Shown here: piece after piece, positions 1-61,725 of the stretch
Layout of the letters: each line of letters begins with the position of its first letter
Numbering within the stretch: position 1 is the stretch's first letter
Assembly (NCBI GenBank): GCA_951406725.2
Contig: OX597818.1
Coordinates: 9,300,001-9,364,000 of the forward strand
Direction of reading: 5' to 3'
Source: Octopus vulgaris
Taxonomy: Eukaryota
DNA length: 64,000 bases
Notes under the pieces: generated by a model
Told to the model about the DNA's origin: nothing
What the model saw: only the letters and a program-made list of their open reading frames with translations
Database searches by the model: none
Made by a program: the position numbers and the translations under genes

Positions 1-2978
<2,978 letters not shown>

Positions 2979-3043
2979 TAACATCGAAAATAGCATCGAA
3001 AAGTACCTTAGAAATGAGAACCCAGGTTCGCAATTTCCCCCAA

Positions 3044-3089
3044 GACACCTGATGAAGACTGGTGGTTATATCAACCGAAACGTTGTGTT
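3044..3089 (+). ncRNA. Minimal type-I hammerhead ribozyme motif in a short repeat (~2978-3140)
   Basis: gacac-CTGATGA-agactggt ggtt atatc aacc-GAAAC-GTT-gtgtt. Stem I is gacac/gtgtt. Stem III is the loopless palindromic ACGT. Confidence 0.6.
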
Positions 3090-3745
3090 AACAAACATGA
3101 AGGGGACAAATATCCGTCACATGTAAATAATGTGAATAATGACCATTCATATACTGACAGTTGAAAAATACAACTGTAACTTGTATGCCATTTTGATTGT
3201 TTAATAGCACATAAACATATCTTGTATTTTTTTTAAATAACTCAATTGTTACATGCTCTGAAATTGAATGTTACACAGTTTCTCTCTTTCTATGCTCATA
3301 ATGCCGCACAGCGTATCACTTTCTACGCACATAATGTTAAGGTAAAACAATATATTCTTGGGATATTGTTGGCGCTTTATTCTTATCTTGAATCTAGAAA
3401 GTGAAATGCCTGTGGGATAAAAATCATGATGATATTGTTTCTCTATCAGGGAAAATTAAATTGACCCTTTCTTGCACGACAATTTGCCACAAAACCTTCT
3501 GGGAAGTTTGCTTTTTTCTTGGATATTTCTGCTTAAATAATCGTGGAAATGATTTAATGTCAATTTCAATTGGATTCTACTGTAATGTTCCACATTGGTA
3601 TGCCTCTAAAATCTCTAAATCAACAGAAATGAGCATTTTTCAACACCCATGTAGCCTATTATTGTTCCGTTGATTAATTTTTCTACAATGATATCAATTA
3701 AGAATGTCTCAAATGTTCTTCATCAGTGACTCATTTGGTATTTCA

Positions 3746-12524: not shown

Positions 12525-13644
<1,120 letters not shown>

Positions 13645-13858: not shown

Positions 13859-13997
13859 CTTTAATAATAATAATAATTATTATTATTATCATTATTGTTG
13901 TTGTTGTAATTATCATTATTATCATCATCATAATTATTATTATTATTATTATTATTATTATAATTATTATTATTATTATTATTTTTTTTTTTTTATT

Positions 13998-14553
13998 GAG
14001 TGAGCGAGCAGAGCATGCCATCAAAGTGACACTGGGGTAAAATATATGAAGCCCAGTATACCCATCATGACTACCTGTCTGATAAGGGTACACCATGCAC
14101 ATGCATCACAACCATATGTGCGCGACATGGTGATCTCATATCAAGATAAACAGCACATGACCTTGCAGGTGGAGCCCAGTTAGAATTTTCTTCAGATCGA
14201 GTAACCCATCCCGCTCAAAAGGTCCCTGAATAAGGGTTGTTTAAGGACGTTGAACGAAACACCCATGTTTCCAGAGGTGAATTATTCAAACCTCAAAGAA
14301 TCCTTCTCAACACATGGCTATGATGCTCTCCCACTACTTCTGCTCGTGATCAGAGATGCACATATCGTCAGCCACTAAGGGACATGCTCAACTGGTTAAG
14401 GTCAAACAACTGACAAGCAAATCTGTGGTATTGAGCAGAATATTTGCTGTAGCCCATCTTTTATACCAAGACAAAACAATGTACATGATAACACTTCCAA
14501 TCAGTTAAGATCAGAAGCCATGAGAGCCACTGCCTGGTACTGCATCAGGGCAT

Positions 14554-14554
<1 letters not shown>
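13998..14554 (-). mobile_element. ~555-bp non-coding, (TAA)n-flanked interspersed element (putative non-autonomous R4/Dong partner), copy 1
   Basis: The reverse complement aligns end-to-end with 59232-59787 (roughly 90% by eye). TTA tracts on both sides. No meaningful ORF. Confidence 0.85.
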
Positions 14555-14870
<316 letters not shown>

Positions 14871-22038: not shown

Positions 22039-23306
22039 CGAGGGACGTTCAATAAGTAATGCCACTGACCCACTTCCAGGTGTTTGATCTAGTTGAAATT
22101 TTGCATGTGCAATTACGTATATCTCTATAGATTAGGTGGCAAATTACAGCTCTGAACTAATTATGGTTTCTGATCTACAGGTGTTTGAACTGAGTCAAGT
22201 GTGAAATGGAGCCTGTTGAGTGTCGAGCAGTGATCCGGTTTTTGTATTTGAAAGGACGCACACCACGGGAGACTTTTGATGAAATGAAAGTAACTTATGG
22301 TGATGATGCCCCATCATATGACCTTGTAAAACGCTGGCATAGTGAATTCAAACATGGTCGGAACTCTGTGGAAACAGCTCCCAGATCTGTTCGCCCCACT
22401 TCTGCCATTAATGAGGCATCTGTCCGCCAAGTTGAGGCTGCCATTTTGGAACATCGACGCATAACTATTCGCCAAATAGCCCATGAGGTCAAGATTAGTA
22501 CCGGGTCAGTGGAAGCTATCATTCATGACCATTTGCATATGCAAAAGTTGTCTGCCAGATGGATTCCCAGGTTGCTCACACTTTTCCAGAAGCAAGAACG
22601 CGTCGAATGCTCGAGGATGAATTTGGAGACGTACCAAGAAGATGAGTCAAAATTTTTGAAAAGACTGATTACACAGGATGAAACCTGGGTCCATCACTAT
22701 GATCCAGAGACCAAAGCCCAGTCAATGCAGTGGAAGCACCGTGACTCACCTTCTCCAAAGAAGACAAGAGTGCAGCCCTCCGCTGGCAAGGTCATGCTCA
22801 CAGTCTTCTGGGACCAGGACGGAGTAGTGATGACAGATTTCCTGGCAAAGGGTACCACAATTACAGGAGCCTATTATGCTTCACTTTTGAGGAAATTAAG
22901 AGAAGCTATCAAAATCAAGAGGCGGGGAAAAATCAGCGAAGGTATCCTCCTCCTGCAGGACAACGCTCCGGTCCACAACTCGCGTGTCGAGGCGTGCGGC
23001 TATGAACTCCTCCCCTATCTCCTGACCTTGCACCCTCTGATGTTCACCTCTTCCCAGCCATGAAGTTGTTTTTGAAAGGAAAGCATTTCCCAGATGATGC
23101 GGCCTTGATTTCTAAAGTCACGGCGTGGATGGAGGACCAGGCTGAGGTATTTTACAAAAACGGTCTCCAGAGCTGGATCAAACGATGGGAGAAATGCCTA
23201 ACTCTGAGTGGTTCCTATGTAGAAAAAGACCAATAACTGTGCCAAGTTCCATTGCTCTACTGGTATGGGAAGTGGGTCAGGGGCATTACTTATTGAACGC
23301 CCCTCG
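22039..23306 (+). mobile_element. Mariner DNA transposon with ~39-bp TIRs and TA target duplication
   Basis: TA|cgagggacgttcaataagtaatgccactgacccacttcc ... ggaagtgggtcaggggcattacttattgaacgcccctcg|TA. Length 1268 bp. Confidence 0.95.
22206..23236 (+). pseudogene. Mariner transposase, frameshifted just before the PDLAPSD motif
   Basis: HTH N-terminus, WIPRLL, ITQDETW, LQDNAPVH. The C-terminus PDLAPSDVHLF...RWEKCLTLSGSYVEKDQ* continues in another frame after small deletions near 22985-23020. Confidence 0.9.
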
Positions 23307-27377: not shown

Positions 27378-27649
27378 TTAAACTTAAATGTTGAAGTGAA
27401 TCGAACGGCTTTTGTGTGTTTCTTAAATGGCTTATAAACACCTCCCACGCTGCAATTGTTTTCGTTTCAGCACACGATCTCAGGTCAAACTACTTGCTAT
27501 GAGAGTACATCTCCGTAATATATATATATATGTATATAAATATATATATTTATTTATTTATGTATGTATGTATCTGTATATATATATAGATATGCATGTA
27601 TATATATATATATATATACATGCATGTATATATATATAGATATGCATGT

Positions 27650-27735
<86 letters not shown>

Positions 27736-27739
27736 TGTG

Positions 27740-28965
27740 TATTCGAAGTCTTGTTAAATCGCCCGTCCACTGCTTCTGAAGACCCGCTGAAGAACATTCC
27801 TCAACACCCTGTCAGATCGGAACTTTCACTTCCCCCTTCCCATATCGAATTCATGACCGCTTTCAATCAAATGAAATCTGACAAAGCTCCCGTGCCTGAC
27901 AACATCCCCTTTGAACTGATCAGAGCGAGTGGACCTGCTCTTCGGGCAATGCTGATTCTCCATATCTGGGAGAAGAAACAGATTCCTCAAGATCTCAAAG
28001 ATGCAGTCATTGTCACCATCTTCAAGAAAGGGGATAGGAGCCTTTGTGGTAACAATCGTGGCATCTCTCTGCTTTCAATCGCAGGCAAAATCATTGCTCG
28101 AATCTTGTTACAATGTCTCCAAGTAGTAGCTGAGTCAGTCTTTCCTGAGTCAGAGTGTGGTTTTAGAAGGTCAAGAGGTACCATCGACATGATATTTTGT
28201 ATAGTCAGATGCAGGAGAAGAGCCGGCCGCAGCAGAGACCTGTCTTTTTCTTCTTCTACGACTTGAAGAAAGCTTTCGACAGTGTCCCAAGAGATGTCAT
28301 GAGGGATATCCTGCATCGTTATGGTTGCCTTGGAGGTTTCATTTCGCTGATCACGGGTTTCCATGATGACATGAGGGTAAGAGTTCTTTATCAGGTTGAC
28401 ATCTCTGAAGAATTCAAGATCACATGGCCTGAAGCAGGAATGTGTTCTTGCTCCAACCCTGTTTTCTTTCTACATCGCTGCCATGCTCTCCGAAATTCCA
28501 ACTGACAACCCCGGAGTGGAACTCAGATGTAGATTTGATGACGGACTTTTCAACATTTTCCCGATCAAGACGTCACTGTCGAGAGCACAAGATCACTGAG
28601 CTTCAATACACTGATGATAACGCAGCCCCAAGATCAGTCTCTACGGTGAACTGTCTGAAGAAAAATGTCCTTGTGGAGTCCCTTGAGACGGTACAAGGAC
28701 TACCTCAAATCAACCCTGAAAAGCACAAACATCGACCCCGCACACTGGGAAGATATCTCGGCAAACAGACCCCTCTGGAGACACACCGTCAAAAGGGTTC
28801 CTACGGACTTCGAGAAAGCCCGTGTCGCAAGAGCTGAACTCAAGAGCCTGGAGAGAAAGCAGCGCTTCCCAAACCAGCCCCTTCTATCCCTTGTCCACAA
28901 TGTCCCCGTATATTTCATGCAACCCTTAGATTGCGGAGCCATCTGCGGTTCAAACACCCAGGAAA
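27740..28965 (+). mobile_element. RTE-type LINE RT fragment (frameshifted, internally deleted)
   Basis: IPQDLKDAVIVTIFKKGDRSLCGNNRGISLLSIAGKI, ESECGFR..RGTIDMIF, DLKKAFDSV, GLKQECVLAPTLF, LQYTDD, RYKDYLK, and a terminal CPQCPR..H zinc finger. Confidence 0.88.
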
Positions 28966-29091
28966 ATGAACTGGATTGCAAGCTCGGAAGCACGATACGC
29001 AACCAACAACATATGTATATATATATATACACTTGTATATATTTAATGTATATATGTATGTATATATGTATGTATATATGTATACACACAC

Positions 29092-29135
<44 letters not shown>

Positions 29136-29519
29136 GTATATACATATATATATGTATATATATATATGTATATATATGTATATAGATATATAGATATATA
29201 TATGCACATATATAAATATATATATATAGGTGTTTGTGTCTGTGCATTATTCTTAAACATTAATGTTGTTGGCAGTACTTCAAAGATTCGGCCGGTTAAG
29301 ACATCGCCACACGAGTTTCACGGTGGGTTAAATAGCCGAGACTTTTAAGTCAGTGTAAACAACATTATTGTTGACGAAAAGAATAATAATTTGCATTCCA
29401 CGAGAGTATAGTGAACCTATCTGATTCACTTCATGTAAAATTGTTTTTATTTTCATAACTAGACGTAAAAGCTCAAAACAAAAACAAAGGAAAGAATATA
29501 TATGTGTGTATATATATAC

Positions 29520-59158: not shown

Positions 59159-59231
<73 letters not shown>

Positions 59232-59233
<2 letters not shown>

Positions 59234-59787
59234 TACCCTGATGCAGTACCAGACAGTGGCTCTCATGGCTTCTCATCTTAACTGATTGGAAGTGTTATCA
59301 TGTACATTGTTTTGTCTTGGTATAAAAGATGAGCTACAGCAAATATTCTGCTCAATACCACAGATTTGCTTGTCAGTTGTTTGACCTTAACCAATTGAAC
59401 ATGCCCCTTAGCAGCTGACGATATGTGCATCTCTGATCATGAGCAGGAGTAGTGGGGGAGCGTCATAGCCATGTTTTGAGAGGGATTCTTTGTGGTTTGA
59501 ATAGTTCACCTCTGGAAACATGTGTGTTTCGTTCAACATCCTTAAACAACCCTTATTAGGGACCTTTTGAACAGGATGGGTTACTCGACCAGAAGAAAAT
59601 TCTAACTGGGCCCCACCTGCAAGGTCATGCCTTGTTTATCTTAATATGAGATCACCATGTCGCGCACATACAGTTGTGATGCATGTGCCTAGCGTACCCT
59701 TATCAGACAGGTAGTCATGATGGGTATACTGGGCTTTGTATATTTTACCCCAGTGTCACTTTGATGGCATGCACTGCTCTCTCACTC
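59232..59787 (+). mobile_element. ~555-bp non-coding (TAA)n-flanked element, copy 2
   Basis: Full-length match to the reverse complement of 13998-14554. (TAA)n at 59160-59231 and 59789-59880. Confidence 0.85.
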
Positions 59788-59788
59788 G

Positions 59789-59882
<94 letters not shown>

Positions 59883-59908
59883 TGATGATGATGATGATGA
59901 TGATGATA

Positions 59909-60037
59909 AATGCCGTGATGCAATATCCGGTAGTGGCACTCATCGTAACTGATTAGAAGTGTTATAATGTTCATGTCTTGGTGTAAAAAATGGGCTACAG
60001 CAAATATTCTGCTCAGTACTACAAATGTGCTTGTCAG
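59909..60037 (+). mobile_element. 555-bp element, older partial copy 3 (5' part)
   Basis: aatgccgtgatgcaata..agtggcactcat..aactgatt-gaagtgttat..gggctacagcaaatattctgctca. Starts at the same 5' point, after a TAA/TGA tract. Confidence 0.75.
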
Positions 60038-60039
60038 AT

Positions 60040-60700
60040 ACTACACTAGCCATGAACAAGGTAGCACCAATAATCATAAAAAATATAAAGCATTCAAAGA
60101 AGCTGGATAGGAAGACAAGAGAGCTTGCAACAGTGCAAGGAGCACATCTTCCTTGTGCAGGCACAGATCGTCTATACATGACGAGAGGAAATGTAAGAAG
60201 AGAACTAAGTGCGGAAGGCTACGTACATATCGTGAATGAATGCTGTAGACTTGCTCCGAACCATCATAGATTGTGGCGACACGATGAGGTAGTGAAAGTA
60301 CTACAATGGAAACAATGCGAGTAGAGTCTAGAGAGAAGCAATACGTGGTATAAACATAAACCACTGAGAATAGCAAAGTCGGAGACTTGCAAAATTCTCT
60401 GGGATTTCCTAGTCCAAACAGCGTGGGTGCCGGAGGACAAGCTGGACCTAGTAGGTATGGACAAAGTGAACCTCTATAATTGTTGTTTCGCGCCCCTTTG
60501 ACCCACGATTAGTCAAGAAGGAAGGTGAAAAATTAGACATGTCCAGTCCTCTTATGTATGAAAGAGCCTAGCTATGGAAAATGAAGAAGTGAAGATTGTG
60601 CCAATTTTATGTTATGTCCTTGGGGACAGTATCAGAAGGCATCAAGAACATAAAGAAAATCAGAATATAATACCTTGTTGAAAACTTTATTATATTACAC
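60040..60700 (+). mobile_element. Decayed, internally deleted R4/Dong-like fragment
   Basis: LDRKTREL...TDRLYM, HIVNECCRLAP..WRHDEV, KILWDFLVQT. Homologous to ORF 1-2646. Confidence 0.75.
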
Positions 60701-60879
60701 AACGCTTGCCCCCATATCACGGCAAGAATAGTCAGAAAGCAATAGATAATTGAAAAGAATAGATGGGGTGGCTTCAAATAGCAAGCCCGTTACGTATGCA
60801 AGGCTCCAGGATTTCCAACAAAACTTGAGATGATAATAATAAAAATAATAAAAATAATAATAATAATAATAATAAACTA

Positions 60880-61401
<522 letters not shown>

Positions 61402-61725
61402 TAGAGGACGAAAAAGAAAAAGTACAATCCCTTAAAATACGAAATAAGAGGAATTTGGTGCATTAGAACAGTTAAGTTCGTGTCTAAAACAATTGATACG
61501 TTGGGAATAGTACGCAATGTTATAGACAAAATGGCTGAAAGAGATTGGAAGGAGAGTTCCTACAGAAAGTTTGTCTCTTACGGACAGTAAGAACTATCAG
61601 GGGGTTCTGAGCACTTGAAAGGCAGCTGAAATCTTGAGGATCCTTAAGGTTACAGGTGGTAACCTGCGCCCACATTAATCCTACCAGGAATACAACCGAA
61701 CTTAAGTCAAATCAAGCCAAAATAA
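61402..61725 (+). mobile_element. Another R4/Dong-like 3' fragment
   Basis: EK..SLKYEIRGIWC..TVKFV...LGIV...LQKVCLL.TVRTI remnant, plus a 3' hairpin at 61642-61665. Confidence 0.6.

What the first reader, a model, noticed from the sequence alone, without database searches (positions are those of the whole stretch)
59232..59787. Non-coding 555-bp (TAA)n-targeted element carrying the same 3' motif: a putative structure-mimicking parasite of R4/Dong
Seen in sequence: two full copies 45 kb apart in opposite orientation (13998-14554 minus, 59232-59787 plus) and one partial copy (59909-60037). All start at the same 5' point next to a TAA-type tract. There is no ORF, no clear tRNA B-box, and no primary-sequence match by eye to the Dong 3'UTRs. 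Yet ~54 nt before the 3' end they fold into the same motif: cctagcgtaccc TTA tcagac AGGTA gtc(a)tga t gggtatactggg (59688-59733; copy 1 at 14052-14096). Inference: a non-autonomous retroelement mobilised in trans by the Dong RT/RLE through RNA-structure mimicry, which would explain its microsatellite targeting. Together with the intact ORF at 1-2646, this looks like a complete autonomous/non-autonomous system within one window.
Basis: partly seen in the sequence, partly recalled or inferred. Interest (0 to 1): 0.82.

Follow-up and report, generated by a model that had tools for sequence, protein, structure and literature searches.

The report
Headless retroelement parasitising Dong LINEs
A 557-base non-coding repeat with many thousands of copies sits inside (TAA)n microsatellites of this genome and likely spreads by borrowing the enzyme of Dong retrotransposons, whose predicted 3' RNA hairpin it shares in shape but not in sequence.

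Summary
Confirmed and extended. The element is a 557-nt, ORF-less, strongly folding family: 8,101 exact genome-wide matches to one 31-mer, roughly 16,000-27,000 copies. In a position-ordered sample of 42 copies, 41 reach the fixed 3' end, 21 start at nt 1-10, 20 are variably 5'-truncated and 32 have AAT repeats upstream (background 1.5%). These are marks of targeted reverse transcription. It is not a Dong 3'UTR (control 791). It shows no sequence match to sampled Dong UTRs and no tRNA, 5S or Rfam head. A covariance model built from 11 Dong-tail hairpins alone finds the element's hairpin (E 0.007 within the element; top non-Dong hits in the window). Trans-mobilisation by a Dong family is likely. 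Whether the hairpin is convergent mimicry or old descent is unresolved, and the partner family is unknown. New here: heads ending at nt 138-141 form tandem arrays, and a MITE carries nt 104-273. Closest known: R2 SIDEs and EhSINE1.

The parts
59232..59787 (+). full-length copy of the 557-nt element
   Evidence: 94.4% to consensus of 87 full copies
13998..14554 (-). second full-length copy
   Evidence: 97.8% to consensus; alignment
59232..59370 (+). head, nt 1-139: the unit of tandem head arrays elsewhere; predicted to end at the base of a hairpin (nt 107-139)
59335..59504 (+). nt 104-273, also carried inside a ~490-bp inverted-repeat element (MITE-like)
59689..59733 (+). 3' hairpin matching the Dong-tail model (outer stem, CTTA/TG internal loop, 6-bp stem with one bulge, NGGTA loop)
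   Evidence: 15.2 bits, E 0.15 per 64 kb; fold z -5.0
14052..14096 (-). same hairpin in the second copy
   Evidence: 14.4 bits; fold z -3.0
59159..59235 (+). (GAT/AAT)n target tract upstream of the copy
59789..59907 (+). (AAT)n(GAT)n tract downstream
14554..14619 (-). (AAT)n tract upstream of the second copy
13876..13983 (-). (AAT)n tract downstream of the second copy
59909..60037 (+). head fragment nt 1-145, 5' part of a likely template-jump chimera
   Evidence: 77.9%
60049..61237 (+). short Dong ORF piece (AMNKVAPIIIK) followed by the decayed 3' part of another Dong family, ending in its tail and an (AAT)n tract
61160..61203 (+). 3' hairpin of that Dong family (a training family of the model)
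   Evidence: 31.3 bits
1..2646 (+). 3' part of an intact R4/Dong-type ORF (RT YMDD, CCHC finger, RHD, PD..D nuclease); candidate but unproven partner
2803..2846 (+). 3' hairpin in that element's 3'UTR (2647-2876)
   Evidence: 39.7 bits, training family
12605..13396 (-). 3' fragment of a third Dong family (50% aa) with its hairpin at 12605-12648

Best explanation
This is a 557-nt non-coding repeat family with a fixed 3' end, variable 5' truncations and (TAA)n tracts on both sides, likely copied in trans by the reverse transcriptase/endonuclease of an R4/Dong LINE that is predicted to bind its 3' hairpin. Steps: (1) a structured RNA starting at nt 1-2 is made, probably by Pol II (inferred; three T4 runs and no B box argue against Pol III; promoter unknown). 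(2) A Dong protein binds the outer-stem / YYDA-NG internal loop / 6-bp stem / NGGNW-loop hairpin (the motif is shown to covary across Dong families; binding is inferred). (3) The protein nicks a (TAA)n tract and primes reverse transcription at the RNA's 3' end (target preference shown; enzyme inferred). (4) Early stops give 5' truncations, and template jumps give 5' duplications and chimeras with Dong fragments (patterns shown; mechanism inferred from R2). The hairpin most likely descends from an old Dong tail whose sequence has drifted beyond recognition (my split: descent 0.6, convergence 0.4).
For: Copy number: 8,101 exact 3' 31-mers and 4,713 exact 5' 32-mers, reversed-pattern controls 0. 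Sample of 42 motif-bearing copies from the first 40 regions on C1: 41 end at nt >=550, 21 start at <=10, 20 start at 42-408; AAT repeats lie upstream in 32 of 42, including 15 of 20 truncated copies, where they cannot come from the template; background 1.5%. The 3' junction has the phase CTC|AATAAT, like Dong tails. Dong hairpin: 13 of 14 pairs change on both sides across 11 family rows, 0 of 500 shuffles reach the covariation score, slid controls much lower. The Dong-only model finds the element's hairpin on the sense strand near the 3' end, E 0.0066 in 581 nt. The two window copies rank directly after the three Dong-family hits, and the anchor copy scores 11.2-16.8 bits in 19 of 20 loci. 5' duplications and chimeras occur, also at a Dong 5' end (L047). 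An intact, recently active Dong exists.
Against: The model score is modest (11-17 bits against 31-40 for training families; E 0.15-0.27 per 64 kb). I chose the hairpin's columns after seeing the element, and the family rows are related, so the shuffles overstate significance. A loose descriptor hit 54 of 2000 shuffled tails, hit a second internal site at nt 321, and missed the abundant family B (0 of 28 tails). Common variants in the element show no two-sided compensation, and by my count only 17 of 28 paired variable sites keep pairing. Only part of the genome's Dong families was sampled (a published octopus annotation lists 51 Dong-R4 families; PMC13282606 supplement). Penelope-like and other repeats also border TAA tracts here. 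No transcript ends and no binding data.
Confidence: 0.75

Rival explanations
1. An ordinary short internally deleted element (SIDE) or bipartite derivative of a living Dong family that I did not sample, sharing its 5' and 3' UTR sequence.
For: Size and behaviour match R2 SIDEs (529 bp, central part of unknown origin; PMC3414825 passages). Only family A's whole 5'UTR (11 copies) and four other upstream regions were compared.
Against: No match to 88 Dong tails (best E 0.083) or to those 5' regions. No ORF-end signature within 10-70 nt of the element's hairpin core, or 8-68 nt before its start (0 and 0), against 791 for a real Dong tail. No coding remnant with a 26-sequence profile. A partner able to make about 20,000 copies would be expected among the tails seen.
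Confidence: 0.12
2. A SINE with a much-diverged small-RNA head, for example U4 snRNA (SINEU-like): the 139-nt head would be a discrete RNA and the 557-nt form a read-through carrying the Dong hairpin.
For: The head aligns collinearly with the genome's U4 (138 nt) from both 5' ends: 43 of 2000 and 15 of 2000 shuffles under two scorings. Head fragments end at nt 138-141 in 20 of 31 independent places, at the base of a predicted hairpin.
Against: The window was chosen after the fact; over the whole element 224 and 115 of 2000 shuffles reach the score. nhmmer finds nothing. Rfam, which holds U4, gives no such hit up to E 10 even on the 144-nt unit. No U4 kink-turn by eye. A 5S match is no better: 449 of 2000 for the head, 10 of 2000 for a picked internal window, 209 of 2000 overall.
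Confidence: 0.1
3. Mobilised by another TAA-associated retroelement (Penelope-like or RTE), with the hairpin resemblance due to chance.
For: Penelope-like ends with a hammerhead core adjoin TAA tracts in the window (2979-3150, read by eye). Animal retrozymes are reported as non-autonomous Penelope-like sequences (10.64898/2026.07.22.740005, listing and start of abstract only). Head arrays resemble retrozyme arrays.
Against: No Rfam hammerhead hit. The 3' end is precise. AAT tracts lie upstream of truncated copies. The best Dong-model site falls at the expected place and strand. Array neighbours share variants, as in DNA-level expansion.
Confidence: 0.07
4. Simply the 5'-truncated 3'UTR of an autonomous Dong family.
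For: Half of the copies are 5'-truncated.
Against: 21 of 42 copies start at nt 1-10, mostly straight after a microsatellite. In some searches I found no copy continuing upstream into an ORF end. Pattern test 0 against control 791.
Confidence: 0.02

Closest known systems
R2 SIDEs (R2Dwi_SIDE; Eickbush and Eickbush 2012, PMC3414825, passages read)
   Same: About 530-560 nt, non-coding, not Pol III, site-specific, moved by an RLE-type LINE, 3' secondary structure kept.
   Different: SIDEs keep 64% (5') and 81% (3') identity to R2 and an HDV-like ribozyme. This element has no detectable identity to sampled Dong UTRs and no convincing ribozyme; it targets (TAA)n and has about 10^4 copies.
EhSINE1 of Entamoeba histolytica (PMC2996970, passages read; R4-clade status of EhLINE1 is recalled)
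   Same: 500-600 bp, no identified small-RNA precursor, non-autonomous partner of an RLE LINE.
   Different: EhSINE1 shares about 70 bp of 3' sequence with EhLINE1 and inserts at T-rich sites with TSDs. Here only the fold is shared and the target is a microsatellite.
Dong (R4 clade) of Bombyx mori (PMC3774820, passages read)
   Same: Inserts in TAA repeats; the window ORF has RT, CCHC and PD..D motifs in that order.
   Different: Bombyx Dong self-cleaves at its 5' end with an HDV-like ribozyme. My loose descriptor found none in the ORF-proximal part of the family A 5'UTR, and its true 5' end was not scanned.
Stringent-type SINEs with LINE-derived stem-loop tails (PMC3747384, PMC3531059, passages read)
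   Same: The partner is recognised through a 3' stem-loop whose stems vary and whose loops are conserved.
   Different: No tRNA, 5S or 7SL head, no Pol III boxes, and no alignable tail.

Membership tests
SINE (SINEBase definition) | shorter than 700 bp, non-coding, high-copy retroposon | tested here: met
   557 nt, longest frame 59 aa, at least 8,101 copies
SINE (SINEBase definition) | head from tRNA, 5S or 7SL with an internal Pol III promoter | tested here: not met
   ARAGORN 0 genes in 4 loci; no relevant Rfam hit; no B box, three T4 runs; 5S not significant
SINE (SINEBase definition) | transcribed by Pol III | not testable with these tools
   only contigs of runs guessed to be RNA were available
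SINEU (snRNA head) | head homologous to a U snRNA | tested here: inconclusive
   U4 15-43 of 2000 shuffles for the head, not significant over the whole element, no Rfam or nhmmer hit; other snRNAs tested through Rfam only
SIDE / bipartite non-autonomous LINE | 5' end identical by descent to the partner's 5'UTR | tested here: not met
   family A (11 copies) and four other upstream regions; remaining families not sampled
SIDE / bipartite non-autonomous LINE | 3' end alignable to the partner's 3'UTR | tested here: not met
   88 tails, best E 0.083; pattern 0 against control 791
SIDE / bipartite non-autonomous LINE | partner's 3' secondary structure kept | tested here: met
   E 0.0066 with a Dong-only model; modest score
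SIDE / bipartite non-autonomous LINE | 5' HDV-like self-cleaving ribozyme | tested here: inconclusive
   a loose descriptor gave 88 sense and 18 antisense parses, none canonical at the 5' end; no cleavage assay
SIDE / bipartite non-autonomous LINE | inserts at the partner's target site | tested here: met
   32 of 42 with upstream AAT against 1.5% background
Retrozyme | hammerhead ribozyme bounding tandem units | tested here: not met
   no Rfam hit; CUGANGA occurs at nt 184 and 360 without the stems, judged by eye
R4/Dong clade (window ORF) | single ORF with RT, CCHC finger and restriction-like nuclease; TAA target | tested here: met
   AAT flanks
R4/Dong clade (window ORF) | RT phylogeny groups with R4/Dong | not tested
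   no named references held; the clade name rests on motifs and target (recalled)

The most novel reading that the evidence does not exclude
A non-coding RNA of independent origin evolved the Dong 3' recognition hairpin convergently and became a microsatellite-targeted parasite with about 20,000 copies. It also releases a discrete 139-nt head RNA, by an unknown processing or termination step, which the Dong RT captures by template jumping and so seeds new tandem arrays. This would be a non-autonomous retroelement with neither a Pol III head nor LINE-derived sequence.
Probability: 0.25. Interest if true: 0.75.

Novelty: new variant of a known kind. Interest (0 to 1): 0.5.

Why it matters
Kojima 2018 (PMC5786205, section 23 read) lists only the RTE, Ingi, Vingi and R2 clades as sources of ORF-less bipartite parasites. 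My searches found no description of a Dong-dependent one, though Repbase and Dfam could not be checked. The work yields a covarying 44-nt hairpin shared by most sampled Dong tails. That gives a concrete, mutable candidate for how R4/Dong proteins choose their RNA, and the element is a natural minimal substrate for insertion into (TAA)n. It also shows a route from a retroelement 5' junction to tandem arrays. The concept itself, a structured parasite of an RLE LINE, has precedents, so this is a variant and not a new class.

Tried and rejected
5S head: a recalled likeness, not significant against the genome's own 5S. U4 head: weak, kept as a rival. tRNA and Rfam: nothing. HDV-like descriptor: too loose to inform. 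Self-cleavage at nt 139/140: not supported. 5'-truncation points at nt 123-153 are spread, with 6 of 39 distinct places (my count from the first 100 of 413 rows) at 139-142, and there is no indel excess at nt 135-143 in 194 copies. Rolling-circle origin of the arrays: not needed, because neighbouring units share variants in blocks. Internal dimer: 503 of 1000 shuffles. Older subfamily: a decayed copy's best 40 hits were 82-85%, so no separate subfamily was seen. Coding remnant: none. Expression: no RNA holder listed on record; contigs cannot show ends or strand. Earlier findings of the scan: three look-ups returned nothing. My first comparison with the Dong A 5'UTR began too far downstream; it was repeated on the whole UTR with the same negative result. 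Literature searches without a description of this element.

Full report
Observation. The source is a 2.8-Gb genome, G000, with the window at C5:9300001-9364000. I infer an octopus from its repeats; that is not a tool result. A consensus of 87 distinct full-length copies is 557 nt, has no frame over 59 aa and folds at -194 kcal/mol. The z-score is -4.5 against 60 shuffles, and -5.4 for nt 219-557.

Copy number and anatomy. An exact 31-mer in the 3' hairpin occurs 8,101 times and an exact 5' 32-mer 4,713 times; reversed-pattern controls give 0. The 3' 31-mer is exact in 7 of 23 and 15 of 29 full copies chosen on other grounds, which suggests about 16,000-27,000 copies. To reduce best-hit bias I fetched the first 40 regions's position-ordered list on C1; these are still selected for an exact motif. 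Of 42 motif-bearing copies (median 95.9% to consensus), 41 end at nt 550 or later, 21 start at nt 1-10, one at 11-30 and 20 at 42-408. Four or more AAT lie in the 30 nt upstream in 32 of 42, including 15 of 20 truncated copies, and downstream in 37 of 42. The window background is 1.5%. AAT upstream of truncated copies shows a target preference and not a tail. Twenty sequencing runs labelled with six organism codes hold the sequence.

Not a 3'UTR. I saw no copy running upstream into an ORF end among the tail-selected (30 loci) or position-ordered loci. A Dong ORF-end signature never lies within 10-70 nt of the element's hairpin core or 8-68 nt before its start. The same signature with a real Dong hairpin gives 791 matches. 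These patterns miss ORF ends with other residues and longer spacings. There is no nucleotide match to 88 Dong tails (best E 0.083), to the whole ~1-kb 5'UTR of family A (11 copies; the two strong hits are neighbouring element copies across a TAA tract) or to four other upstream regions. A protein profile of 26 diverse Dong C-termini finds no coding remnant.

The Dong side. The window ORF belongs to a 1268-codon open frame with RT, a CCHC finger, RHD and RPD..D motifs; its solved relatives are R2 proteins. The best 150 genome matches are 96-100% identical, so the family is young. Several other families at about 28-60% identity end in (AAT)n. I aligned 11 hairpin rows picked by hand from these tails, leaving out family B, where I found no such hairpin (0 of 28), and one anchored singleton. 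With the structure I named, 72.7% of cells pair, 13 of 14 pairs change on both sides, 0 of 500 shuffles reach the covariation score, and slid controls pair 34-49%. The rows are related and hand-chosen, so this is not a probability.

Does the element carry that motif? A covariance model from those rows only gives 39.7, 37.5 and 31.3 bits for three Dong tails in the window. Next come the two element copies at 15.2 and 14.4 bits (E 0.15 and 0.27 per 64 kb), then 14.0 bits at 61633-61677; the rest score 11.3 or less. The 14.0-bit site reads AAEILRIL in frame by eye, like a Dong C-terminus, so it is probably an untrained Dong tail. Within one element the hairpin is the only real hit (E 0.0066, sense strand), and the anchor copy scores 11.2-16.8 bits in 19 of 20 loci. 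The shape is therefore shared beyond chance, at the level of a distant Dong family. That supports recognition by a Dong protein but cannot separate convergence from old descent. Against: a loose descriptor also hits 54 of 2000 shuffled tails and an internal site, and the element's own variants show no two-sided compensation.

Head. No tRNA, no relevant Rfam family, no B box, and three T4 runs. The 5S likeness failed. U4 gives a weak collinear alignment (15-43 of 2000 shuffles for the head only), which I treat as inconclusive. A TATAAAAG at nt 90 and an ATTGG at nt 54 would point to a start near nt 120, which does not explain RNAs starting at nt 1. How the 5' end is made stays open; Pol II is my inference.

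Head arrays. Junctions in which a head fragment ending at about nt 132-162 is followed by nt 1 occur 328 times. The first 100 rows collapse, by my count, to 31 independent places: 20 end at nt 138-141, 7 at 132-134 and 4 at 152. The neighbouring window (about nt 99-128) has 9 matches genome-wide, all at about nt 121-125. Twenty fetched places show (TAA)n-[1-139]xN-[1-557]-(TAA)n and variants of it, with N up to 25. Junction letters are constant within an array and differ between arrays, and neighbouring units share variants. I read this as a template jump onto a 3' end at nt 139, followed by DNA-level expansion. Nt 139 closes a predicted hairpin (nt 107-139; z -1.9; the whole head z -0.4). No matching excess of copies starting at nt 140 was seen. 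A discrete 139-nt RNA is thus suggested, not shown. The window's partial copy is a similar chimera: head 1-145, a short Dong ORF piece, then a decayed Dong 3' end.

MITE link. Loose ends in public contigs led to a second family of at least 672 matches. It is about 490 bp with ~100-bp imperfect inverted repeats and CACTGTGTAAC termini, and carries element nt 104-273 at 96.5% between consensuses, with 25 of 25 copies hitting at 75-93%. The segment's predicted partners lie outside the shared part (helices 220-228/548-556 and 232-244/437-449), so capture from the retroelement is likelier. If so, the family is older than most of its copies (inference).

Known systems. It works like an R2 SIDE (PMC3414825, passages) or EhSINE1 (PMC2996970, passages) but fails their sequence-sharing tests, and it fails the SINE head test (PMC3531059, passages). 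Kojima 2018 (PMC5786205, passages and section 23) names no R4-derived ORF-less parasite. An octopus annotation (PMC13282606, parts 1-2 of 3 and its supplement) lists 51 Dong-R4 and 1,279 unclassified SINE families without describing them; its library is on Zenodo and was not visible to me, so the sequence may already sit there or in Repbase/Dfam unnamed. PMC9115989, PMC8967140, PMC4824008, PMC11481361, PMC3774820 and PMC3747384 were seen as passages only. Eight searches gave no description of it; subscription journals are largely missing from that library.

Verdict. A real, high-copy, TAA-targeted non-autonomous retroelement, likely dependent on Dong (0.75). Partner family, promoter and origin of the hairpin are unresolved. 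New variant of a known kind; interest 0.5.

Noticed in passing
G000 C7, C16, C27, C28, C29, C30, C34 (L092, L181-L186, L197-L199): Tandem arrays of the element's 138-141-nt head, up to 25 units before a full copy and inside one TAA tract. 228 of 328 junction matches lie on C30 or later contigs.
   Followed up: partly
L033:2450-2980 and L201-L225: A ~490-bp element with ~100-bp imperfect inverted repeats and CACTGTGTAAC termini, often flanked by TA (Tc1/mariner-like by recall), carries nt 104-273 of the element; at least 672 matches.
   Followed up: partly
window 2979-3150 (partial copy from 3942): Repeat next to a TAA tract with a minimal hammerhead core (CTGATGA...GAAAC), read by eye as Penelope-like.
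   Followed up: no
window 61460-61720: Probable decayed 3' end of a further Dong family; its hairpin scores 14.0 bits with the Dong model although not in the training set.
   Followed up: partly
L091:6840-10000 plus window 1-2646: Intact 1268-codon Dong frame. The family's 5'UTR is about 1 kb, with its own GAT-rich tract and a repeated ACTGACAGATCC; this copy lacks about 300 nt of it.
   Followed up: partly
Dong family B tails (for example L016:1290-1400): A very abundant Dong family lacks the shared hairpin descriptor (0 of 28 tails), suggesting another recognition fold.
   Followed up: no
L137, L149, L039, L154, L190: Some copies sit in or beside (GAA)n tracts, so target choice is not strictly TAA or the tracts have turned over.
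   Followed up: no
L074:1430-1500: A full copy directly follows a 5S-derived sequence without a TAA tract.
   Followed up: no
window 22194-23063 and 27640-29348: A mariner-type transposase frame and RTE-like RT fragments, named by recall from the translations.
   Followed up: no
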